From IMG/VR virus record IMGVR_UViG_2671181134_000003: a stretch of 19,496 nucleotides of DNA. One strand, 5' to 3'. Shown here one piece after another: positions 1 through 12,982 of this stretch. The stretch comes from a virus. Taxonomy: Duplodnaviria > Heunggongvirae > Uroviricota > Caudoviricetes. The position numbers were made by a program, and so were the translations under genes. Below the pieces are notes generated by a model that saw nothing but the letters and a program-made list of their open reading frames with translations, was not told the origin of the DNA and did not search any database. Positions within the stretch are counted from its first letter, which is position 1; every line of letters starts with the position of its first letter.

Positions 1-779
1 ACGAACTGGTTGTTAAAGGGATAAATATTTACCCGGATAAGATTACTGTTACTGTGGCGCTGGAAACTGGTGGGTATACGTCACTGTTGTTGCCAAATGT
101 GGTGATTGATCTTGATCGTGTTGAAGGTGCCCCGCTGGAGTTTTACGAAGCTGAGGCGAAAAAGAAGGCGAAGCAGTTTTTCATGGATATTGCTGCCGGG
201 TTATGTGAAGGGAACGAACCGTTGCCGGAAAAGCGCCTTTGTTCAGAAGAGCGGTATACCATACAAATTAACAATGCATATAACACGATACAGTCAGAAA
301 AAGATGATATCGAATCACGCATTGAAAAACTGGAGAACAGCGTCGTTGAACTGAATAAAAAACTGTCGGTGCAGATCCCTTCCGAAGGTGAAAAAAAACG
401 CCGTGATGAGCAGTTCGCGGCGTTTTACGATTATTGCCGGAAAGTGATGAGCAGAAATCTCGCAGAGTGTTTCCGTATTCAAAAAAACAGAGAGCGCTCT
501 GCAAATAGTGAAATTCTGGATAATTTTTTAAAGGGGACGCATCTCGCCAGTGATTGTTTCATTGCTCATTCTTTTGGTGGCTTTCATGAGGCCATCAAAC
601 ATGATGTTGAGAGAAGTCCAGGTATCCTCTGTTCCATTCCCGTAAGCATCGAAATAGACACAAATACGATAACCGGTGAACTCGTTACTGCCGGAGTCGG
701 TATATTCCGTCATGAGGGGAACGATGCCAAAGGTTCCTTTACAAAAATCGGGCCGTTCTTTCTGAAGGTAGAGCGATAG
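1..779 (+). CDS. hypothetical protein, C-terminal part (reading frame open from window start; 5' end outside window)
   Basis: Frame 3 has no stop from nt 3 to TAG 777-779 (about 258 codons). Codon usage looks genuine (CTG/GAA/AAA preferred). No Shine-Dalgarno before the first GTG at 54, consistent with the start lying upstream of the window. Overlaps the 3' end of the convergent - strand ORF by about 250 nt, so one of the two may be a shadow ORF. No family recognised. Confidence 0.45.
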   Translation, partial: ELVVKGINIYPDKITVTVALETGGYTSLLLPNVVIDLDRVEGAPLEFYEAEAKKKAKQFFMDIAAGLCEGNEPLPEKRLCSEERYTIQINNAYNTIQSEKDDIESRIEKLENSVVELNKKLSVQIPSEGEKKRRDEQFAAFYDYCRKVMSRNLAECFRIQKNRERSANSEILDNFLKGTHLASDCFIAHSFGGFHEAIKHDVERSPGILCSIPVSIEIDTNTITGELVTAGVGIFRHEGNDAKGSFTKIGPFFLKVER

Positions 780-1160
780 TTTGTTAAGTACCCATCCGAC
801 AGCTCGCTCATTTTGGTTTATTTTCGTATCGCGAAACAAAAATTCGAAGCGGCCAGATGACGCATGGGTGCAACCAAATACCGGGGCGTATTCATCAACC
901 TTTGGTGTTCCTGAAAACATGCAGTCCGTGCTCTCGAATGCAGATGAATTGCTGTTGATCCACTTAACAAAAGAAAAAAAGGTCTGAATCGCTTGTCTGT
1001 CTGAATATTCAACAAAATCCTCAAGGTGTGTCTCGATCAGTTCCGGGTGTTTACGAAAGTCATAATATTGACCGGGACGATATTTATGAGTGGTTGTTTT
1101 ATCCCATGGTTGTGCTCTGCGTCCCTGTAAACGGAGGTCTGCCGCTGGATAGATAAGCAT
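528..1160 (-). CDS. hypothetical protein (about 210 aa), opposite strand to the phage late genes
   Basis: ATG at 1160-1158 is preceded by AGGAG (complement of 1168-1172) with a 7-nt spacer; stop TAA is the complement of 528-530. It is a long ORF in AT-rich DNA. The ORF-track start at 1229 is rejected in favour of the SD-supported ATG. No family recognised. Confidence 0.5.
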   Translation of the reverse strand: MLIYPAADLRLQGRRAQPWDKTTTHKYRPGQYYDFRKHPELIETHLEDFVEYSDRQAIQTFFSFVKWINSNSSAFESTDCMFSGTPKVDEYAPVFGCTHASSGRFEFLFRDTKINQNERAVGWVLNKLSLYLQKERPDFCKGTFGIVPLMTEYTDSGSNEFTGYRICVYFDAYGNGTEDTWTSLNIMFDGLMKATKRMSNETITGEMRPL

Positions 1161-1290
1161 AAGTAATCTCCTGGTGGAATGTAATCCACGATCATCCGGG
1201 GAAATTAAGAACCCGCCAGTGCCCACCACTGGTGGGGTGAAGGCTTAACATATCCAGGGATTCGGAACCGATAAATCCTGATAAATATCC

Positions 1291-1824
1291 ATGAACACCA
1301 AAATCAAATACGGCCTGTCGGCTGCCGTTCTGGCGCTGATTGCCGCAGGGGCGCCTGCGCCTGATATTCTCGACCAGTTTCTGGATGAAAAAGAAGGTAA
1401 CCACACCACGGCATACCGTGATGGTGCGGGGATCTGGACCATTTGTCGTGGTGCCACCAGGGTGGATGGCAAACCTGTCGTCCCGGGCATGAAGTTGTCG
1501 AAGAAAAAATGCGACCAGGTTAACGCCATTGAGCGTGATAAGGCGCTGGCATGGGTGGAGAAAAACATCCGGGTGCCACTGACTGAACCCCAGAAAGCGG
1601 GGATCGCGTCATTCTGCCCGTATAACATTGGCCCCGGTAAGTGTTTCCCGTCGACGTTTTATAAACGAATTAATGCAGGCGATCGCAGGGGAGCGTGTGA
1701 AGCGATTCGCTGGTGGATTAAGGACGGTGGCAGAGACTGCCGTATCCGCTCAAACAACTGTTACGGCCAGATATCCCGTCGTGACCAGGAGAGCGCGCTG
1801 GCGTGCTGGGGAATCGACAGATAA
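1291..1824 (+). CDS. R: phage endolysin, lysozyme-like (GH24) with SAR-type signal-anchor N-terminus
   Basis: 177-aa ORF. N-terminal weakly hydrophobic Gly/Ala-rich segment (GLSAAVLALIAAGAPAP) is typical of a SAR domain. E-x8-D-x5-T catalytic spacing (EGNHTTAYRDGAGIWT) matches T4/P21-type lysozymes. Position is immediately upstream of the spanins. Confidence 0.9.
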   Translation: MNTKIKYGLSAAVLALIAAGAPAPDILDQFLDEKEGNHTTAYRDGAGIWTICRGATRVDGKPVVPGMKLSKKKCDQVNAIERDKALAWVEKNIRVPLTEPQKAGIASFCPYNIGPGKCFPSTFYKRINAGDRRGACEAIRWWIKDGGRDCRIRSNNCYGQISRRDQESALACWGIDR

Positions 1825-1913
1825 GCAGAATATTTTGCTGAAAAATGACGTTGGCCAACGCGGACGGATAACACGAAATCCTGCGAACTGGCAAAACCTA
1901 AGTGAATAAAAGT

Positions 1914-1955
1914 AAAAACCCCGTTTGTTGGCAGCAAGCGGGGTTTTGTGTTTCT
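1914..1955. terminator. bidirectional intrinsic terminator-like hairpin downstream of the endolysin
   Basis: CCCCG (1919-1923) pairs with CGGGG (1939-1943) around a 15-nt loop. It is flanked by an A-run (1914-1918) and a T-run (1944-1947, then GTGTTTCT), so either strand gives a hairpin followed by U-rich sequence. Confidence 0.45.
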
Positions 1956-1980
1956 GACCTTGGATAAGGCAAGGGAGAAC

Positions 1981-2163
1981 ATGGAAAAGTATAAACGAAT
2001 TCTGTTGAGGTTGACTATGAAAAACGGCCTTGAACTGAAAGCGCCTGTAACTGATGACATCAGCAGAGCGCTGGCTTTTGCTATTAAGTGGGTGGCGGTC
2101 GGTGTTGCTGTGTCCCCGATGCTGTATGGGCTGGCAAAACTGGTCATTGCGTTGAAATCGTGA
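1981..2163 (+). CDS. small membrane protein (60 aa from ATG 1981; in-frame GTG at 1948 is an alternative), one C-terminal TM helix
   Basis: AAGGGAG at 1971-1977 precedes ATG 1981. Basic N-terminus followed by a hydrophobic stretch ([28 protein letters not shown]). Stop TGA at 2161-2163. Confidence 0.4.
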
Positions 2164-2177
2164 AGGGAGGATTAAGC

Positions 2178-2309
2178 ATGTCAGACAAACTCATAACGCT
2201 GGCGAAGATCCTCTGTGTAATTGTCGGCATTTCATTTTCACTAATGCTGGTTGCTCTTTTTCTTTCCATGGCCTGGATGATGTTGTCTTCGTCGGGGCTG
2301 CTGGGGTGA
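2178..2309 (+). CDS. small membrane peptide (43 aa), single TM helix
   Basis: Strong SD GAAGGGAGG (2162-2170), 7-nt spacer, ATG 2178. Sequence [36 protein letters not shown] is almost entirely one TM segment. Stop TGA 2307-2309 overlaps the GTG at 2306 of the next gene (GTGA). Confidence 0.5.
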
Positions 2310-2779
2310 ACATAAACCGAATGCTTTCCGCGTTTATCGTTATTCTGCTGGTGGCCTGTGGAGCGATGTGGATGGCAACAGACCATTACCGTGATAACGC
2401 GATTACCTACAAAGCGCAGCGCGATAACAAAGCCAGTGAACTGAAGCTGGCGAACGCAACCATTACTGATATGCAGGTGCGCCAGCGCGATGTTGCTGCG
2501 CTCGATGCAAAATACTCGAGGGAATTAGCCGATGCGAGAGCTGAAAATGAAACTCTTCGCGCTGACGTTGCCGCTGGTCGTAAGCGCCTGCGGATCAACG
2601 CCACCTGTCCAGGCTCCGTGCGTGAAGCCCCCACCACCTCCGGCGTGGATAATGCAACCGGCCCCAGACTGGCAGACGCCGCTGAACGGGATTATTTCAT
2701 CCTCAGAGAACGGTTGATGACAATGCAGAAGCAGCTGGAAGGGGCACAGCTATACATTCGTGAGCAATGCCTCAGATAA
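2306..2779 (+). CDS. Rz: i-spanin (Rz), inner-membrane spanin subunit
   Basis: N-terminal TM segment followed by [14 protein letters not shown]...[11 protein letters not shown]...QKQLEG, closely matching lambda Rz as I recall it. Start is either GTG 2306 (coupled to the preceding stop) or ATG 2321. Stop TAA 2777-2779. Confidence 0.88.
2532..2717 (+). CDS. Rz1: o-spanin (Rz1), outer-membrane lipoprotein, nested in the +1 frame inside Rz
   Basis: 61-aa ORF entirely inside Rz in a different frame. Lipobox-like LVVSAC followed by a proline-rich stretch ([27 protein letters not shown]) that is near-identical to lambda Rz1. SD GAGGGA sits 8 nt upstream of ATG 2532. Confidence 0.85.
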
Positions 2780-5942: not shown

Positions 5943-6151
5943 GCACAGAAGAAGCCAGAGAAATGATACAGCGGTACCGTGAAGCGGAAATGGCCGTACT
6001 GGAGGGGAAGTCTGTCACCTTCAACGGGCAGCAACTGACGCTGGAAAGCCTTTCTCAGATCCGCGCCGGACGTCAGGAGTGGGAACGCAGGCTTGCCGCG
6101 ATGGTGAGCCGCAGGCGGGGAAAACCAGGATTTAAACTGGCGAGGTTTTAA
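5939..6151 (+). CDS. W: head-tail joining / head completion protein W-like
   Basis: About 70 aa, placed between terL and portal as lambda W is, with a basic RRRGKPGF C-terminus like lambda W (RRRGPAGF). Preferred start is GTG 5939, with AGGAGG at 5927-5932 and a 6-nt spacer, overlapping the terL stop (GTGA). The in-frame ATG at 5915 is an alternative. Confidence 0.7.
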   Translation: MSTEEAREMIQRYREAEMAVLEGKSVTFNGQQLTLESLSQIRAGRQEWERRLAAMVSRRRGKPGFKLARF

Positions 6152-7653
6152 TGGCAATTATTGATGATGTGATAGGCGTGTTTTCCCCCGGGTGGAAAGC
6201 AGCCAGACTGCGTTCAAGGGCGTTAATCATGGCCTATGAGGCGGTGAAACCGACCCGGACACATAAAGCCCGGCGGGAAAATCGCTCTGCCGATCAGCTC
6301 AGTAAATACGGTGCGGTTTCCCTGCGGGAGCAGGCCCGTTTTCTTGATATCAATCATGACCTGGTGATTGGTGTGTTTGACAAGCTGGAAGAGCGGGTGA
6401 TTGGTGCCAGGGGAATTATTGTGGAGCCTCAGCCATTACGAAAAAACGGGGAAATGGCGGCTGAGCTGGCTGCGGATATCCGCCGGTTGTGGGCTGAATG
6501 GTCCGTGAGTCCGGATGTGACAGGGCAGTATACCCGTCCCGTGCTTGAACGTTTACTGCTGCGGACCTGGCTGCGGGATGGTGAAGTGTTTGCGCAGATG
6601 GTCAGTGGTGCGGGAAACGGTCTGGAACGGACGGCGGGAGTGCCATTCTGGCTTGAGGCGATGGAGCCGGATTTTGTTCCCATGCGCACTGATGAATCCG
6701 CCGGGCTGAATCAGGGGGTTTTTCTTGATGAGTGGGGAAGACCGAAAAAATATCTGGTTTATAAAAATTATCCGGTCAGCGGTCGGCAGAGTGATACGAA
6801 AGAAATCGCTGCCGGAAAAATGATCCACCTGAAGTTCATACGCCGTCTGCATCAGACGCGAGGCTCATCCATGTTATCGGGGGTGCTGATGCGGATCAGT
6901 GCCCTTAAGGAATATGAGGATGCGGAACTGACGGCTGCGCGTATTGCCGCGGCGCTGGGACTGTATATCCGTAAAGGGGACGGACAGGACTATGAAGATC
7001 CGGGGATCAAAGATACCAACCGGGAAGTCCATATCACCCCGGGTATTATTTATGACGATTTGCGCAAGGGCGAGGATATCGGCATGGTCAAATCTGACCG
7101 TCCCAATCCCAACCTTGAAACTTTCCGCAACGGCCAGTTGCGTGCAGTGGCAGCAGGCAGTCGTCTGAGTTTTTCCAGTGCGGCGCGTAACTATAACGGC
7201 ACCTACAGCGCCCAGCGGCAGGAGCTGGTCGAGTCCACGGATGGTTACCTGATCCTGCAGGACTGTTTTATTGGCGCGGTAACCCGCCCGGTGTACCGGA
7301 CATGGCTGAATATGGTGGTTGCGGCAGGTCTGCTGAAAATTCCGGCGGATGTGGAGATGAAAACGCTATATAACGCGACGTATTCCGGTCCGGTGATGCC
7401 GTGGATCGACCCGGTTAAGGAAGCTGAAGCCTGGAGAATTCAGATCCGGGGTGGTGCAGCGACAGAATCTGACTGGGTGCGTGCCGGTGGGCGCAATCCG
7501 GATGAGGTCAAACGTCGCCGCAAGGCTGAAATTGATGAAAACAGCAGACTGGGGCTGGTCTTTGATACTGACCCCGTCAACGACAAAGGAGGCAACAGTG
7601 CCGGAACTGAACGACAGTATCAGCGCGACACCGAAAGCCAGCATGAAGAATAA
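6151..7653 (+). CDS. B: portal protein (lambda gpB-like)
   Basis: 500-aa ORF directly after W, with a TAATG stop/start overlap at 6149-6153. Size and position match the lambda portal gpB (533 aa). Assigned by synteny and size; no specific motif was checked. Confidence 0.9.
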   Translation: MAIIDDVIGVFSPGWKAARLRSRALIMAYEAVKPTRTHKARRENRSADQLSKYGAVSLREQARFLDINHDLVIGVFDKLEERVIGARGIIVEPQPLRKNGEMAAELAADIRRLWAEWSVSPDVTGQYTRPVLERLLLRTWLRDGEVFAQMVSGAGNGLERTAGVPFWLEAMEPDFVPMRTDESAGLNQGVFLDEWGRPKKYLVYKNYPVSGRQSDTKEIAAGKMIHLKFIRRLHQTRGSSMLSGVLMRISALKEYEDAELTAARIAAALGLYIRKGDGQDYEDPGIKDTNREVHITPGIIYDDLRKGEDIGMVKSDRPNPNLETFRNGQLRAVAAGSRLSFSSAARNYNGTYSAQRQELVESTDGYLILQDCFIGAVTRPVYRTWLNMVVAAGLLKIPADVEMKTLYNATYSGPVMPWIDPVKEAEAWRIQIRGGAATESDWVRAGGRNPDEVKRRRKAEIDENSRLGLVFDTDPVNDKGGNSAGTERQYQRDTESQHEE

Positions 7654-9622
7654 ATCCTGGTTCAGGATGCAGGCTGGGGGGCCGGGTGACGCGGATATTT
7701 ATATTTATGACGAGATTGGTTTCTGGGGAGTTACCGCGAAGCAGTTTGTCAGCGAACTGAATGCACTGGGTGATATCACCCACATTAATCTCCATATCAA
7801 TTCACCGGGTGGCGATGTCTTTGAAGGCATCGCCATTTTTAATGCCCTGAAAAATCAGGGGGCGACCATTACCGTGTATGTGGATGGCGTTGCCGCCTCG
7901 ATGGCATCTGTGATTGCGATGGCCGGTGATACGGTCATTATGCCGGAAAATGCCTTCATGATGATCCATAAGCCATGGGGATTCAGTGGCGGGGATGCTG
8001 AGGATATGCGCAGTTATGCCGATTTGCTGGATAAAGTCGAATCGGTACTGTTGCCAGCCTATGCGCAGAAAACCGGAAAAACCACCGATGAAATTGCCGC
8101 CATGCTGGCGGATGAAACCTGGATGTCCGGTGCCGAATGTCTGGCACACGGATTTGCTGACCAGGTGACACCCGCTGTTGAGGCAATGGCATGTATTCAG
8201 TCAAAACGTACAGAGGAATTTAAAAAGATGCCGGAATCCATCCGAAACATGATTACTCCGCCACGCAACAGTGCCCCGCGTGATACCACAGTGATAATCC
8301 CTGCACCGGCGGTAACAGAACCATCACCGGTACCGGCAGTGTCTGATGAGGCGACCATTCGCGCCCGCGTTATGGCAGAACAGAAAGCCCGCATGTCAGG
8401 CATTAACGATCTGTTTGCCATGTTCGGCGGTCGCTATCAGACGCTTCAGGCACAGTGCGTGGCTGATCCTGACTGTTCGCTGGAAATGGCCCGTGAACGT
8501 CTGCTGAATGAAATGGGCAAGGAGTCCTCGCCGACCAACAAAAACACACCGGCTCATATTTATGCCGGAAACGGCAATTTTGTGGGAGACGGGATCCGCC
8601 AGGCGATGCTGGCCCGTGCCGGATTTGAAAATGTCGAGAAGGATAACGCCTATAACGGGATGACCCTGCGTGAATGGGCTCGTATGTCACTGACGGAGCG
8701 CGGTATTGGGGTGGCCAGTTATAACCCCATGCAGATGGTCGGGCTGGCGCTGACGCACAGCACCTCTGATTTTGGCAATATCCTGCTGGATGTGTCGAAC
8801 AAGGGGCTGATCCAGGGCTGGGAGGAATCAGAAGAAACCTTCCAGAAGTGGACCCGTAAGGGACGCCTGTCAGACTTCAAAACAGCGTATCGCGTGGGGA
8901 TGGGCGGTTTTGGTTCTCTGCGCCAGGTTCGTGAGGGGGCGGAGTATAAATACATCACCACCTCAGATCGCAAGGAGACCATTGCTCTGGCCACCTACGG
9001 GGAGATTTTCTCCATCACCCGCCAGGCCATTATCAATGATGATCTGAATATGCTGGTGGACGTGCCGATGAAGATGGGGCGTGCGGCGAAGGCAACGATT
9101 GGTGACCTGGTTTACAAGGTGCTGACGGATAACCCGAAACTGTCCGACGGTAAGGCGCTGTTCCATGCCGATCACAAAAATATTGCCACCGGGGGGATCT
9201 CCGTTTCCGGACTGGATGCGGCCCGTCAGATGATGCGCCTGCAGAAAGAAGGCGATCGCGCCCTGAATATCCGTCCGGCCTTTATGCTGGTACCGGTGGC
9301 ACTGGAGACGGTGGCGAACCAGACCATCAAATCGGCCAGTGTGAAAGGGGCGGATGCAAACGCCGGTGTCATTAACCCTATCCAGAACTTTGCTGAGGTG
9401 ATTGCGGAAGCGCGTCTTGATGCGGCAGATCCGAAAACCTGGTATCTGGCGGCGGCACAGGGCACTGACACCATTGAAGTGGCCTGGCTGGATGGTGTGG
9501 ACACGCCATACATTGATCAGCAGGAAGGTTTCACCACTGACGGCATTGCCACAAAAATTCGTATTGATGCCGGTGTGGCACCACTTGACTGGCGCGGTCT
9601 GGTGCGTTCGTCGGTGGCCTGA
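7598..9622 (+). CDS. fused prohead protease (ClpP/S14-like) and major capsid protein
   Basis: N-terminal part has ClpP-like motifs (GVAASMASVIAMAGD with a candidate catalytic Ser; MMIHKPWG with a candidate His). C-terminal about 330 aa occupies the major-capsid position. Start set at GTG 7598 (AAGGAGG at 7586-7592, 5-nt spacer) rather than the ORF-track start 7451, which lies inside the portal gene; ATG 7643 is an alternative. Confidence 0.8.
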   Translation: MPELNDSISATPKASMKNKSWFRMQAGGPGDADIYIYDEIGFWGVTAKQFVSELNALGDITHINLHINSPGGDVFEGIAIFNALKNQGATITVYVDGVAASMASVIAMAGDTVIMPENAFMMIHKPWGFSGGDAEDMRSYADLLDKVESVLLPAYAQKTGKTTDEIAAMLADETWMSGAECLAHGFADQVTPAVEAMACIQSKRTEEFKKMPESIRNMITPPRNSAPRDTTVIIPAPAVTEPSPVPAVSDEATIRARVMAEQKARMSGINDLFAMFGGRYQTLQAQCVADPDCSLEMARERLLNEMGKESSPTNKNTPAHIYAGNGNFVGDGIRQAMLARAGFENVEKDNAYNGMTLREWARMSLTERGIGVASYNPMQMVGLALTHSTSDFGNILLDVSNKGLIQGWEESEETFQKWTRKGRLSDFKTAYRVGMGGFGSLRQVREGAEYKYITTSDRKETIALATYGEIFSITRQAIINDDLNMLVDVPMKMGRAAKATIGDLVYKVLTDNPKLSDGKALFHADHKNIATGGISVSGLDAARQMMRLQKEGDRALNIRPAFMLVPVALETVANQTIKSASVKGADANAGVINPIQNFAEVIAEARLDAADPKTWYLAAAQGTDTIEVAWLDGVDTPYIDQQEGFTTDGIATKIRIDAGVAPLDWRGLVRSSVA

Positions 9623-9644: not shown

Positions 9645-9663
9645 GCCCGAAAGGGCTTTTTTT
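9645..9663 (+). terminator. weak intrinsic terminator/attenuator after the capsid gene
   Basis: GCCC-GAAA-GGGC (4-bp stem, GNRA-type loop) at 9645-9656 followed by seven T (9657-9663), 23 nt after the capsid stop. The short stem suggests partial termination. Confidence 0.35.
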
Positions 9664-9709: not shown

Positions 9710-10036
9710 ATGGCGAAAAATTTTGTACAGGACGGCACCACCATTGAACTGGTGAATGCCGGAGATCAGACCATCCTGAGCGGTGCTGCGGTGGTGGTCG
9801 GCAGTATGGTGGCAGTGGCCATTACCGATATTCCTGCCGGTGATGCCGGTGACGGTTTTGCCGAAGGCGTGTTCCTGCTGCCCAAACAGTCTGCTGACGA
9901 TATTCAGTCCGGCGCGGTGGTTTATCTGAAGGACGGGGTTGTGCAGCTGGCTGCAGACGGTGCGGTGGCTGCGGGGGTAGCCTGGGAAAATGCCCCTGCA
10001 AACAGCGCCACTGTGGCGGTAAAAATCAATGTCTGA
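9710..10036 (+). CDS. small head protein (possible decoration/cement protein, DUF2190-like), Gly/Ala/Val-rich
   Basis: 108-aa ORF directly downstream of the capsid gene with GGAGA upstream of ATG 9710. Gly/Ala/Val-rich composition. Function assigned by position only. Confidence 0.6.
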   Translation: MAKNFVQDGTTIELVNAGDQTILSGAAVVVGSMVAVAITDIPAGDAGDGFAEGVFLLPKQSADDIQSGAVVYLKDGVVQLAADGAVAAGVAWENAPANSATVAVKINV

Positions 10037-10310
10037 TCTGTTTACGCGAATGTGTTGCCGGATGGACGGGGCGACCGTTCGTGTGATGGGCAAACAGGCG
10101 GAGATTAACGGCGTAGTGTATGACGTGATGCCGGAGGAAGAGTCCGCGGATATGGGGGCGCTTTCGGGCAGCCAGTTGTCACTGGTGGTGTTTTCAGCCC
10201 GGTACCGTCCGGCCCGTCATGATGTTGTTGTGTTTGCGGGGCGCACACTGACGGTGACCCGTTATGACACGTACAACGGTAAACCCCGGATTTTTGTTGA
10301 ACAGGAATGA
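10029..10310 (+). CDS. putative head completion / head-tail connector protein (FII-like position)
   Basis: 93-aa ORF whose ATG 10029 overlaps the preceding stop (10034-10036). Lies between the head genes and the Z homolog. Function inferred from synteny only. Confidence 0.55.
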   Translation: MSDLFTRMCCRMDGATVRVMGKQAEINGVVYDVMPEEESADMGALSGSQLSLVVFSARYRPARHDVVVFAGRTLTVTRYDTYNGKPRIFVEQE

Positions 10311-10936
10311 GTATGGCAATAAAAGGTCTGGCGCAGGCCATGAAAAATCTGGATGCAATTGACAGCCGTGCCGTTCCCCGGGCTGCCGCCACGACACTTA
10401 ACCGTGTGGCGGAGTCCATCATCGCGAAAACGGCCTCTTCGGTTGCCAGGGAGTTGGCGGTTCCGCGCCGTCTCATCCGTGAGCGTATCCGCCTGCAACG
10501 GGCCAGCGCAGACAGGGTTTATGCGAAGGTCATCATCAACACCGGTAATCTGCCCGCCATAAAACTGGGGACGGCCAGCGTGCGGCTTTCCCGCAGAAAG
10601 CGACGAAAGAAAGGCGAGCGTTCGGTCACGAAAGGCGGTGGCAGTGTGCTGATTGTGGGGAAAAGACGGATCCCGGATGCCTTTATCACCCGGCTGGCTA
10701 ACGGACGCTGGCATGTGATGCAGCGTATGCCGTGGGCATCATCGTCCACCGGCGCTGACAGCAAAGGGAGGCCGAAACGCCACCGTCTGCCGATCGAAGT
10801 GGTGAAGATTCCGACTGCCGGACCGCTGGCAGAAACCTTTGAACGTGAACGGGACCGGATGTACCGGGAAAAATTACCGGCGCAGATGATGAAAGCCATG
10901 ACGCATCAGTTACGTCTGGTGCTGAAAAGAAAATGA
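10307..10936 (+). CDS. Z: tail completion protein Z (lambda gpZ-like)
   Basis: MAIKGLAQAMKNLD...VPRAAATTLNRVA...GGGSVLIVGKRRIPDAFITRLANGRWHVMQR aligns along its length to lambda gpZ (MAIKGLEQAVENL...GGGSVLVVGNRRIPGAFIQQLKNGRWHVMQR). ATG 10307 overlaps the upstream stop (ATGA); ATG 10313 is the lambda-like start. Confidence 0.92.
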   Translation: MSMAIKGLAQAMKNLDAIDSRAVPRAAATTLNRVAESIIAKTASSVARELAVPRRLIRERIRLQRASADRVYAKVIINTGNLPAIKLGTASVRLSRRKRRKKGERSVTKGGGSVLIVGKRRIPDAFITRLANGRWHVMQRMPWASSSTGADSKGRPKRHRLPIEVVKIPTAGPLAETFERERDRMYREKLPAQMMKAMTHQLRLVLKRK

Positions 10937-12119: not shown

Positions 12120-12551
12120 ATGTTTCTGAAAACAGAACAATTTGAATATAACGGTGTGTCCGTCACGCTTTCTGAGCTGTCTGCGCTGCAGCGTATTGAG
12201 CATCTTGCCCTCCTGAAACGGCGGGCAGAAGAGGCTGAAGTCAGCGGTAACCTGCAGGTGAGCGTGGAGGACCTTGTCAGAACCGGGGCGTTTCTGGTGG
12301 CGATGTCCCTGTGGCATAACCATCCACAGAAAACGGCGTCACCGTCAATGAATGAGGCCGTGATGAAGATAGAGCAGGAAGTGCTCACCACCTGGCCTGC
12401 CGATGCCATTGCCCGGGCGGAAGACGTTGTGTTGTGCCTGTCCGGGATGATCGAAGCAGTTCGTCCGGATACTGATATTACTGAAGTGGCGAAAAATAAC
12501 GCGCTGACTGATGATGATTTTTCTGCGGGAAAGTCTTCGACGGCGAGCTGA
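12120..12551 (+). CDS. G: tail assembly chaperone G (lambda gpG-like)
   Basis: MFLKTEQFEYNGVSVTLSELSALQRIEHLALLKR...GAFLVAMSLWHNHPQKT is near-identical to lambda gpG. Ends at TGA 12549-12551. Contains the slippery heptamer near its 3' end. Confidence 0.92.
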   Translation: MFLKTEQFEYNGVSVTLSELSALQRIEHLALLKRRAEEAEVSGNLQVSVEDLVRTGAFLVAMSLWHNHPQKTASPSMNEAVMKIEQEVLTTWPADAIARAEDVVLCLSGMIEAVRPDTDITEVAKNNALTDDDFSAGKSSTAS

Positions 12552-12982
12552 ACTTTGCCCTCAGACTGGCGCGTGAGATGGGGAGACCCGACTGGCGCGC
12601 CATGCTTGCCGGGATGACATCCACCGAATATGCCGACTGGCACCGTTTTTACCGCACGCATTATTTTCACGATACCCAGCTGGATATGCATTTTTCCGGG
12701 CTGACGTACGCCGTACTCAGCCTTTTTTTTTGCGATCCGGATATGCATCCCTCGGATTTCAGTCTGCTTGTCCCCCGGCGTGAGGAAGCGCAGACGGAGA
12801 GGCCGGATGAGGACGATATGCTGATGCGGAAAGCGGCAGGACTTTCTGGTGGTGTCCGCTTTGGGGCTGACGGGAAGGAAATCGTTACGGTCAGTGATGA
12901 CATGCGGAGCAGCACAGAGGATGAAGCCATGCTGATGATGGTGTCTGAGGGAATTGCAGGAGGTGTACGCTATGGCGGGTAA
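12120..12982 (+). CDS. T: tail assembly protein G-T fusion produced by -1 frameshift at 12527-12533 (T-frame part ends at TAA 12980-12982)
   Basis: The -1 frame ORF (track 12578..12982, open upstream to the slippery site) encodes a lambda gpT-like sequence (MGRPDWRAMLAGMTSTEYADWHRFYRTHYFHD...SEGIAGGVRYG). It has no independent SD or start, as expected for a frameshift product. Confidence 0.8.
12527..12533 (+). other. programmed -1 ribosomal frameshift slippery site G GGA AAG (G to G-T)
   Basis: GGGAAAG at 12527-12533 sits in the X XXY YYZ register of the G frame (codons GGA 12528-12530, AAG 12531-12533). The -1 frame is open from there and encodes ...LNFALRLAREMGRPDWRAMLAGM..., matching lambda gpT. 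Confidence 0.8.

What the first reader, a model, noticed from the sequence alone, without database searches (positions are those of the whole stretch)
7598..9622. Single gene fusing a ClpP-like prohead protease to the major capsid protein
One 674-codon ORF spans the positions that lambda fills with C (protease), Nu3 (scaffold), D and E (capsid). Its N-terminal about 200 aa carry ClpP/S14-like Ser and His motifs (GVAASMASVIAMAGD, MMIHKPWG) and its C-terminal half is the capsid domain. The head module therefore departs from lambda even though terminase and tail genes track lambda closely, indicating mosaic module exchange. The protease must presumably cleave itself away from the capsid domain during maturation. 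The likely start is an SD-supported GTG (7598) that overlaps the portal gene end by 56 nt.
Basis: partly seen in the sequence, partly recalled or inferred. Interest (0 to 1): 0.4.

Follow-up and report, generated by a model that had tools for sequence, protein, structure and literature searches.

The report
Known protease–scaffold–capsid fusion gene
This is the already-described 'tripartite' head gene of Gifsy-2-type prophages, which encodes protease, scaffold and capsid protein in one reading frame and is common in E. coli; the one possibly new point is sequence evidence for a conserved second start site inside the gene.

Summary
Window 7598-9622 is one uninterrupted 674-codon ORF. It has an N-terminal ClpP-fold protease (Ser101, His124) and a C-terminal Mu gpT-like capsid domain.

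It is not new. It scores 1002 bits against NCBIfam NF045540 'ClpP-like prohead protease/major capsid protein fusion protein' (cutoff 475). It is 100% identical to Escherichia phage 1720a-02, occurs in 2070 of 5426 complete E. coli genomes, and is 62% identical to the published Gifsy-2 tripartite capsid gene.

- A separate decoration gene (9710-10036) fills the role of lambda D.
- Terminase (24%) and portal (21%) do not track lambda. They belong to the Gifsy-2-type head module. Only the tail is lambda-like.

One lead goes beyond the finding. An in-frame ATG at 8228 (Met211), just after the protease domain, is kept in 83 of 84 relatives. It always follows an AGGA/GGAG motif that persists while the encoded amino acids change. 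It lies in the least-folded and most synonymously constrained part of the gene. This suggests a nested 50.5-kDa scaffold-capsid product, as Nu3 is nested in lambda C. This is inferred, not shown.

The parts
6151..7653 (+). Portal gene (lambda-family portal fold, Gifsy-2-like). Its last 56 nt overlap the fusion gene.
   Evidence: Pfam Phage_portal_2, E 6.9e-80. 64% identical to the Gifsy-2 portal and 21% to lambda B.
7585..7592 (+). Shine-Dalgarno AAAGGAGG, 5 nt upstream of GTG 7598.
   Evidence: Read directly from the sequence. The same SD plus start is kept in mEp460, and an SD-like motif plus start codon occurs at the homologous position in Gifsy-2, Fels-1, PSTCR8lys and F10.
7598..9622 (+). 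Tripartite head gene: ClpP-like prohead protease, scaffold-like region and major capsid protein. 674 aa, 73.1 kDa.
   Evidence: RefSeq names it 'ClpP-like prohead protease/major capsid protein fusion protein'.
7643..7645 (+). ATG used as the start by GenBank (KF030445) and RefSeq (WP_122995503, 659 aa). Probably not the true start.
   Evidence: There is no SD upstream, and the codon is not conserved (Pro in mEp460).
7655..8188 (+). ClpP-fold (S14-like) protease domain, residues 20-197. Ser101 is at 7898-7900, His124 at 7967-7969, Glu173 at 8114-8116.
8213..8217 (+). Internal Shine-Dalgarno-like GAGGA, 10 nt before ATG 8228.
   Evidence: It is the only aligned SD-like site in the gene kept in 98% of 40 representatives; the next best site reaches 50%. 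Codons -5/-4 are xAG GAx in 37 of 40 representatives although the amino acids vary (EE, ED, QE, KD, KE).
8228..9622 (+). Proposed nested product from in-frame ATG 8228 (Met211): scaffold-like region plus capsid protein, 464 aa, 50.5 kDa. Inferred, not shown.
   Evidence: ATG in 83 of 84 homologs. The two lowest synonymous-diversity windows of the gene flank it. The mRNA around it is among the least folded in the gene, median percentile 3.5% in 39 representatives. The same arrangement occurs in a distant clade and in a second fusion family.
8189..8344 (+). Pro/Ala/Gln-rich linker of variable length, residues 198-249. It includes the conserved MPxxhKN start of the proposed nested product.
   Evidence: pLDDT below 50. 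Indel-rich in the alignment.
8345..8524 (+). Conserved three-helix central domain, residues 250-309. Presumed scaffold or delta-domain analogue.
   Evidence: Helices at 251-274, 281-289 and 295-308, pLDDT 70-85. Conserved R, I, F, F, C, D, A, L and P positions. The profile finds no solved homolog.
8525..8572 (+). Disordered, indel-prone segment, residues 310-325. This is the most likely region of the maturation cleavage that frees the capsid protein. Inferred.
   Evidence: pLDDT below 50. Variable length between the conserved TPS/TPT motif and HIYAGNGN.
8573..9619 (+). Major capsid protein domain, residues 326-674, of the Mu gpT / Phage_capsid_4 type.
   Evidence: Pfam PF25209, E 9.3e-56, and Mu-like_gpT, E 6.8e-10. 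A profile of 40 relatives hits solved capsid chains 8rkx/8rkc ('Mu GpT domain-containing protein', E 6.5e-10) and 9jod ('Major capsid protein', E 4e-8). In the model, pLDDT is about 80-90, with a long helix at 488-511 and a low-confidence loop at 426-458. BFVD matches predicted 'Major capsid protein' models at E 3e-16, TM 0.72.
9710..10036 (+). Separate head decoration (cement) gene, the functional counterpart of lambda D.
   Evidence: Pfam Phage_cement_2, E 7.8e-19. 52% identical to the Gifsy-2 gene at the same position. Annotated 'head decoration' in mEp460 and F10.

Best explanation
The ORF is a member of the known Gifsy-2-type 'tripartite' head gene family (NCBIfam NF045540).

Anatomy (shown):
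- Residues 20-197: a ClpP-fold serine protease.
- Residues 198-249: a flexible proline-rich linker.
- Residues 250-309: a small conserved helical domain.
- Residues 310-325: a second disordered segment.
- Residues 326-674: a Mu gpT-type capsid domain.

Mechanism (inferred from the family precedent and from HK97 and lambda). The polypeptide assembles on the portal into a procapsid, with the capsid domains forming the shell and the N-terminal parts pointing inward. The helical domain acts as a built-in scaffold, like the HK97 delta domain. Once enclosed, the protease cuts in the disordered segments and degrades itself and the scaffold part. This leaves a capsid protein of about 38 kDa. The shell then expands during DNA packaging, and the product of the next gene (9710-10036) binds as a cement protein.

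The gene is read from two starts. GTG 7598 gives the 73-kDa protease-bearing form. The conserved internal ATG 8228, with its own GAGGA ribosome-binding motif, gives a 50.5-kDa scaffold-capsid form without protease. That would let the phage set the protease dose below one per shell subunit, as lambda does with Nu3 nested in C.
For: Identity:
- NF045540, 1002 bits against a cutoff of 475. PHROG 133 over the full length.
- 100% DNA identity to phage 1720a-02 and 99% to VT1-Sakai and other Stx phages.
- The RefSeq product name, and presence in 2070 of 5426 complete E. coli genomes.
- 60-62% identity over the full length to Gifsy-2 STM1034.3n. Papers held here cite Effantin 2010 for its fused protease and coat genes and for a trimeric decoration protein at the capsid 3-fold axes.
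- The same three-domain reading was published for Pseudomonas phage MD8.

Folds:
- ClpP by sequence and structure, with invariant Ser101 and His124.
- The capsid-domain profile hits solved Mu GpT-type capsid chains and predicted viral major capsid protein models.
- Domain limits come from the AlphaFold2 model, mean pLDDT 72.5.

The fusion is conserved in 78 of 80 species-level loci.

Internal start:
- ATG in 83 of 84 sequences. The one sequence lacking the ATG also lacks the motif.
- xAG GAx codons in 37 of 40 representatives against background G-ending frequencies of 0.17-0.84. The naive product is 1e-14.
- It is the unique SD-like peak in the gene.
- It has the lowest synonymous diversity in the gene and weak mRNA folding.
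- Distant clades keep an SD plus ATG at the same junction with different amino acids: AAGGAGG-cttt-ATG in L091, GAGGAAATTAGT-ATG in L092.
- The second fusion family, NF045541, has a different protease and shares homology only from about residue 217. It has an SD plus in-frame ATG at this junction in 4 of 5 phages examined.
Against: - No experiment was available here. Cleavage, the mature N-terminus and the scaffold role are inferred.
- The primary Gifsy-2 paper is not in the held library. I could not check its cleavage site or whether it already discusses an internal start.
- The position of the ClpP catalytic Asp holds an invariant Glu173, not Asp, so the triad is not canonical.
- The AGGA-to-ATG spacing of 10 nt is on the long side.
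- The 1e-14 figure assumes that lineages are independent.
- Met-Pro and the acidic residues before it could be conserved for a protein-level reason.
- Fold searches of the whole model against solved structures listed only ClpP and crotonase hits. The capsid fold therefore rests on the profile hits, the BFVD matches and the secondary-structure pattern.
Confidence: 0.9

Rival explanations
1. Only the full-length 73-kDa chain is made, so every shell subunit carries its own protease. The conserved ATG and AGGA at 8213-8230 would then reflect something other than initiation. Candidates are a protein-level motif (acidic-acidic-aromatic..Met-Pro), a translational pause that lets the protease domain fold, or an RNA element.
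For: The amino-acid context is fairly conserved (E/Q/K-E/D-F/Y..MP). The spacing of 10 nt is long. Nothing here shows a 50-kDa product. A rough volume estimate of my own suggests that 415 copies of a 37-kDa internal part (about 15 MDa) would fit inside a T=7 procapsid.
Against: The nucleotide motif survives changes of the encoded residues, and the third codon position is G in 37 of 37 E/K/Q codons, even in AT-rich hosts with 18-30% background. It is the only conserved SD-like site in the gene. The region is the least folded and most synonymously constrained. A family with an unrelated protease has the same feature at the same junction.
Confidence: 0.3
2. The fusion is an artefact or a pseudogene. 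A frameshift or a lost stop codon would have merged separate protease and capsid genes in this sequence.
For: None found. Single-base indels do occur nearby: a 1-nt deletion fuses portal to this gene in some E. coli prophages.
Against: The same single frame occurs in 78 of 80 loci from different species at 47-78% identity, in 74 phage genomes including isolated, plaque-forming phages, and in 2005 E. coli genomes at full length. A curated family model exists for the fusion.
Confidence: 0.01
3. The N-terminal domain is a catalytically dead ClpP relic that serves only as scaffold, and maturation is done by a host protease or another phage protease.
For: Glu173 replaces the canonical ClpP Asp. The protein scores far below the cutoff for true ClpP: TIGR00493 gives 61.6 bits against 308.6.
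Against: Ser101 and His124 and their motifs are invariant in 84 sequences down to 47% identity. NCBIfam NF045542 'head maturation protease, ClpP-related' matches at 224 bits against a cutoff of 120. No other protease gene lies in the head module.
Confidence: 0.05

Closest known systems
Gifsy-2 tripartite capsid gene (STM1034.3n; Effantin et al. 2010, Virology 402:355)
   Same: Same three-part architecture in one ORF, 60-62% identity over the full length. Same neighbours: portal upstream with an overlapping start, and a Phage_cement_2 decoration gene and a Gifsy-2-family head-tail gene downstream. A start codon occupies the homologous position, as does the internal ATG plus GAGGAG.
   Different: The tail module differs. 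Here it is close to lambda (V 76%, H 74%), whereas these window proteins are only 55% and 28% identical to the Gifsy-2 V and H homologs. The central linker differs in length and sequence.
NCBIfam NF045540 / RefSeq WP_122995503 'ClpP-like prohead protease/major capsid protein fusion protein' (E. coli prophages; phages 1720a-02, VT1-Sakai, mEp460, cdtI, F10)
   Same: The window sequence is this protein: 100% DNA identity to several records.
   Different: Only the annotated start differs. Databases use ATG 7643 (659 aa), whereas comparison favours GTG 7598 (674 aa).
Lambda C / Nu3 / E (S49 protease with the scaffold Nu3 nested in frame, plus a separate capsid gene)
   Different: blastp finds no similarity to C, Nu3, D or E. 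Here the capsid protein is also on the same chain. The decoration gene follows the capsid gene rather than preceding it.
HK97 gp4 / gp5 (separate protease; delta domain fused to the capsid protein)
   Same: The proposed 464-aa nested product would have the HK97 gp5 layout: a scaffold part of about 110 residues in front of the capsid domain, removed by the prohead protease. This is from general knowledge of HK97.
   Different: The protease family differs and is unfused in HK97. From general knowledge, HK97 stabilises its shell by covalent crosslinks, whereas this module carries a cement-protein gene. No sequence match was seen.
NCBIfam NF045541 'prohead protease/major capsid protein fusion protein' (Rhodobacter RcC-cluster phages, Ralstonia prophages, Pseudomonas LPPA33)
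   Same: Homologous scaffold and capsid part from about residue 217 onward (417 bits; reciprocal match). An SD plus in-frame ATG at the protease/scaffold junction in 4 of 5 examined. A DUF2190/cement gene lies downstream.
   Different: The N-terminal protease domain is unrelated in sequence; no CLP_protease hit was found. The window protein scores below that family's cutoff (417 against 525).
Mu gpT-type major capsid proteins with solved capsid structures (PDB 8rkx/8rkc, 9jod)
   Same: The capsid domain is homologous at profile level (E 6.5e-10 and 4e-8). Pfam Mu-like_gpT also hits.
   Different: Those solved chains are 302-305 residues long, about the length of a capsid domain alone. Sequence identity is low.

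Membership tests
NF045540 ClpP-like prohead protease / major capsid protein fusion (Gifsy-2 type) | Whole-protein HMM score above the curated cutoff | tested here: met
   1002 bits against a cutoff of 475; residues 32-672 cover model positions 2-651 of 652.
NF045540 ClpP-like prohead protease / major capsid protein fusion (Gifsy-2 type) | N-terminal ClpP-fold domain with nucleophile Ser and general-base His | tested here: met
NF045540 ClpP-like prohead protease / major capsid protein fusion (Gifsy-2 type) | C-terminal major capsid protein domain (HK97 fold, Mu gpT type) | tested here: met
NF045540 ClpP-like prohead protease / major capsid protein fusion (Gifsy-2 type) | Both domains in one uninterrupted reading frame, conserved among relatives | tested here: met
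   78 of 80 loci show a single HSP in a single frame.
NF045540 ClpP-like prohead protease / major capsid protein fusion (Gifsy-2 type) | Position in the head module: after the portal gene, before a cement/decoration gene | tested here: met
   Portal at 6151-7653 and Phage_cement_2 at 9710-10036. The same order occurs in Gifsy-2, mEp460, F10, Fels-1 and PSTCR8lys.
NF045540 ClpP-like prohead protease / major capsid protein fusion (Gifsy-2 type) | Proteolytic release of the mature capsid protein from the precursor | not testable with these tools
   This needs virion protein analysis. The primary Gifsy-2 paper is not held.
Bona fide ClpP (ATP-dependent Clp protease proteolytic subunit, TIGR00493) | Score above the equivalog cutoff, and a Ser-His-Asp triad | tested here: not met
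   61.6 bits against a cutoff of 308.6. The position aligned with the Asp of the ClpP ERD-x-[FW]-[LM]-S motif is Glu173, while the neighbouring Asp172 is variable. It has the ClpP fold but is not a ClpP.
Lambda C/Nu3 type (S49 prohead protease with nested scaffold) | Sequence membership in Peptidase_S49 or similarity to lambda C | tested here: not met
   No blastp hit to lambda C or Nu3 at E 1e-3. There was no Pfam Peptidase_S49 hit, and only weak sub-cutoff SppA matches in NCBIfam.
Lambda C/Nu3 type (S49 prohead protease with nested scaffold) | In-frame internal initiation giving a protease-less C-terminal product | tested here: inconclusive
   The comparative sequence signals are strong, but there is no expression data.
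NF045541 prohead protease / major capsid protein fusion (second family) | Whole-protein HMM score above the cutoff | tested here: not met
   416.8 bits against a cutoff of 525. Only residues 217-671 align.

The most novel reading that the evidence does not exclude
The 'single fused gene' may really be a nested gene pair. A conserved internal ribosome-binding site (GAGGA, 8213-8217) and ATG 8228 would produce a 50.5-kDa scaffold-capsid protein alongside the 73-kDa protease-bearing chain. The ratio of the two starts would then set how many proteases are built into each procapsid. The same design appears in a second fusion family with an unrelated protease, which would make it a general rule for protease-scaffold-capsid fusion genes. 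I found no mention of this in the papers I could read, but I could not read the primary Gifsy-2 paper.
Probability: 0.55. Interest if true: 0.5.

Novelty: already known. Interest (0 to 1): 0.25.

Why it matters
As stated, the finding adds nothing new. The fusion has a curated family model and a standard RefSeq product name, a 2010 structural paper covers a 62%-identical homolog, and the gene sits in about 38% of complete E. coli genomes.

Two practical points do follow:

1. The database start (ATG 7643) is probably 15 codons short. This affects thousands of identical annotations.

2. If the conserved internal start is real, it answers an obvious puzzle of this architecture: how a phage avoids packing one protease per shell subunit. 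It would also tie these genes to the nested designs of lambda C/Nu3. That is of moderate interest to phage-assembly specialists and is easy to test.

Tried and rejected
- **First AlphaFold2 run.** A 39-sequence alignment at 75-95% identity gave mean pLDDT 35 and was discarded. A more diverse 58-sequence alignment gave 72.5.
- **Central domain.** Its profile has no meaningful solved homolog; the best E-value was 0.23.
- **Primary Gifsy-2 paper.** It could not be read by PubMed id or DOI. Literature searches for a reported internal start or cleavage site found nothing relevant.
- **Short proteins starting at the Met211 homolog.** P0153 (458 aa) and P0131 turned out to be cut by contig ends, so they are not natural split genes. 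The context of the 443-480-aa representatives starting with 'MP' could not be checked. A viral-contig scan with P0247 returned only relatives at 54% identity or less, and I did not examine their upstream regions.
- **Frameshift idea.** The run T-AAA-AAG just before ATG 8228 resembles a slippery site with an SD-like stimulator. It occurs only in the window/mEp460 group, whereas the SD and ATG are universal, so I rejected a conserved frameshift.
- **cos-like site.** A search found nothing above chance.


Full report
**Observation.** The window has an open frame at 7451..9622 on the + strand. Read from GTG 7598 it gives 674 codons and a stop. AAAGGAGG lies 5 nt before the GTG. The portal ORF (6151-7653) overlaps the start by 56 nt. 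The description is accurate.

**What it is.** Pfam finds CLP_protease at residues 46-191 (E 1.7e-36) and Phage_capsid_4 at 384-671 (E 9.3e-56), plus a weaker Mu-like_gpT match. NCBIfam gives 1002 bits against NF045540 'ClpP-like prohead protease/major capsid protein fusion protein', whose cutoff is 475. It also gives 224 bits against the domain model 'head maturation protease, ClpP-related'. PHROG 133 matches end to end.

The DNA is 100% identical to Escherichia phage 1720a-02. It is 96.5-99% identical to VT1-Sakai, CP-1639 and a series of Stx2 phages. Related copies occur in 2070 of 5426 complete E. coli genomes, where RefSeq uses exactly the family name above. At protein level, 74 phage genomes carry a full-length match. 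These include mEp460, cdtI, mEp213, LLS, Fels-1, Gifsy-2 (60%) and about 30 Pseudomonas phages (58%).

Papers held here cite Effantin et al. [quoted passage not shown] They also cite it for a trimeric decoration protein at the capsid 3-fold axes. The same three-domain reading was published for Pseudomonas phage MD8. The fusion is therefore an established, named family.

**Not an artefact.** A scan of one genome per species returned 80 loci from Enterobacterales, Pseudomonas, Shewanella, Pasteurellaceae, Psychromonas and others, at 47-78% identity. In 78 of them a single tblastn HSP covers both domains inside one open frame. The other two are an N-terminally truncated copy and a contig end. An exhaustive search with residues 211-674 found 3264 clusters (at 50% identity) with E up to 1e-30. 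Most of the best 150 are 640-700 residues long, with the match starting near residue 190-260, which means they are fused.

**Anatomy.** The first AlphaFold2 run used a shallow alignment and failed, with mean pLDDT 35. A second run with a more diverse alignment gave mean pLDDT 72.5 and clear limits:
- Residues 20-197: protease, pLDDT 80-90.
- Residues 198-249: disordered.
- Residues 250-309: three helices, pLDDT 70-85.
- Residues 310-325: disordered.
- Residues 326-674: capsid domain, pLDDT 80-90. It has a long helix at 488-511 and a low-confidence loop at 426-458, which fits an HK97-type fold.

For the capsid domain, a profile of 40 diverse relatives hits solved capsid chains named 'Bacteriophage Mu GpT domain-containing protein' (8rkx/8rkc, E 6.5e-10) and 'Major capsid protein' (9jod, E 4e-8). 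The model also matches predicted viral 'Major capsid protein' structures at E 3e-16, TM 0.72. The central helical domain has no solved relative.

**Start codon.** GenBank and RefSeq start the gene at ATG 7643. I compared six homologs at 58-77% identity. A start codon at the position of 7598 is present in all six. In mEp460 it keeps the same AAAGGAGG and 5-nt spacer, and in F10 it has GGAGG. ATG 7643 has no Shine-Dalgarno motif and is a proline codon in mEp460.

1. A cement/decoration gene lies immediately downstream at 9710-10036 (Phage_cement_2, E 7.8e-19). It is 52% identical to its Gifsy-2 counterpart. The fusion therefore stands in for lambda C, Nu3 and E, not D.
2. Large terminase is 24% and portal 21% identical to lambda, against 69% and 64% to Gifsy-2. 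Z, U, V, G, T, H, M, L, K and I are 54-85% identical to lambda. The packaging and head module as a whole is Gifsy-2-like and the tail is lambda-like. The joint lies near 10307.

**A lead beyond the finding: a conserved internal start.** An in-frame ATG at 8228 (Met211) lies just after the protease domain. Six lines of sequence evidence point to initiation there.

- **Conserved ATG.** It is ATG in 83 of 84 aligned homologs.
- **Motif kept at nucleotide level.** It is always preceded, 9-10 nt upstream, by AGGA or GGAG. The encoded residues change (EE, ED, QE, KD, KE, GD, ME), yet the nucleotides keep the motif: GAG GAA, GAG GAC, CAG GAG, AAG GAT, AAG GAG, GGA GAC or ATG GAG. The one sequence without the ATG (Pleionea) also lacks the motif.
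- **Codon choice.** Among 40 representatives less than 80% identical to each other, 37 have xAG at codon -5, although G-ending E/K/Q codons make up only 17-84% of such codons in the same genes. The naive product of these frequencies is 1e-14, which overstates significance because lineages are related.
- **Unique peak.** A scan of the whole gene for aligned SD-like 4-mers finds this site in 98% of representatives. The next best site reaches 50%.
- **Synonymous constraint and folding.** The two 7-codon windows with the lowest synonymous diversity in the entire gene are residues 208-214 and 197-203. The -30..+20 mRNA window at this ATG is among the least folded in the gene, at a median percentile of 3.5% in 39 representatives.
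- **Other clades and a second family.** A distant environmental clade has different residues but again an SD plus in-frame ATG after the protease domain: AAGGAGG-cttt-ATG, GAGGAAATTAGT-ATG and GAGGAAATTACC-ATG. A second fusion family, NF045541, has an unrelated N-terminal protease and is homologous only from about residue 217. It shows one SD-preceded in-frame ATG at the same junction in 4 of 5 phages examined: Ralstonia YO135_4, Pseudomonas LPPA33, Rhodobacter RcOceanus and Synechococcus MinM1.

**Reading of that lead.** The simplest interpretation is a nested product of 464 residues (50.5 kDa). It would consist of the linker, the helical domain and the capsid protein. That is the layout of HK97 gp5 (delta domain plus capsid), and it would be made the way lambda makes Nu3 inside C (annotated overlap). 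It would let the phage build shells mostly from protease-free subunits, with a minority of protease-bearing chains targeted to the interior by their own capsid domain.

This is inference from sequence only, and I put it at about 0.55-0.6. I found no mention of it in the papers I could read. I could not read the primary Gifsy-2 paper.

**Mechanism.** The domain order, the folds, the invariant Ser and His, the conservation of the fusion and the gene context are shown. The rest is inferred from the Gifsy-2 precedent and from HK97 and lambda: co-assembly with the portal, an inward-facing protease and scaffold, cleavage within the disordered segments (most likely residues 310-325 for the mature N-terminus), loss of the fragments, expansion, and binding of the cement protein.

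**Verdict.** Interest in the finding as stated is low. The start-site correction and the candidate nested start are the only parts that add anything.

Noticed in passing
L089 1501-4980 (E. coli GCA_012637905); corresponds to window about 7600-7606: Several database proteins of 1158-1159 aa (P0071-P0086) join portal, protease and capsid in one ORF. In L089 this comes from a 1-nt deletion (GTGCCGCAA to GTGCC-CAA) just after the GTG start, which carries the portal frame into the fusion frame. It may mark a defective prophage lineage, or a lineage that relies on downstream starts.
   Followed up: partly
window 7643 versus 7598: GenBank (KF030445) and RefSeq (WP_122995503) start the gene at ATG 7643. 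Comparison favours GTG 7598 with AAAGGAGG. The ATG is a Pro codon in mEp460.
   Followed up: yes
window 8114-8116 (Glu173): The residue aligned with the catalytic Asp of ClpP is an invariant Glu in all 84 relatives, and the adjacent Asp172 is variable. The protease may use a Ser-His-Glu triad or a Ser-His dyad.
   Followed up: partly
window 9645-9663: A short hairpin, GCCCGAAAGGGC followed by seven T, sits between the capsid gene and the decoration gene. The mEp460 record annotates a rho-independent terminator at the same place. The consensus scan missed it because the stem has only 4 pairs.
   Followed up: no
window 12527-12533: The lambda-type slippery heptamer G GGA AAG lies in frame near the end of the G homolog (12120-12551), ahead of the T ORF (12578-12982). 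This fits the conserved G/GT -1 frameshift of tail assembly chaperones.
   Followed up: partly
window about 10029-10936: The mosaic joint lies here. Genes up to 10029-10310 (Pfam 'Gifsy-2' family) resemble Gifsy-2. From Z (10307) onward the tail genes are 54-85% identical to lambda.
   Followed up: yes
L094 1844-3937; L163-L166: A second fusion family (NF045541: Ralstonia, Pseudomonas LPPA33, Rhodobacter RcC cluster, Bordetella, Synechococcus MinM1) joins an unrelated protease to a homologous scaffold-capsid module. The homology starts within a few residues of the window's Met211, so that point is a module boundary.
   Followed up: partly
window 54-2779: Upstream of the packaging genes lie a DUF1327 ORF (54-779), a phage lysozyme (1291-1824) and an Rz homolog (2306-2779). 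The spacing between lysozyme and Rz is about 440 nt shorter than in the 1720a-02 record, which carries a chloramphenicol acetyltransferase gene there.
   Followed up: no
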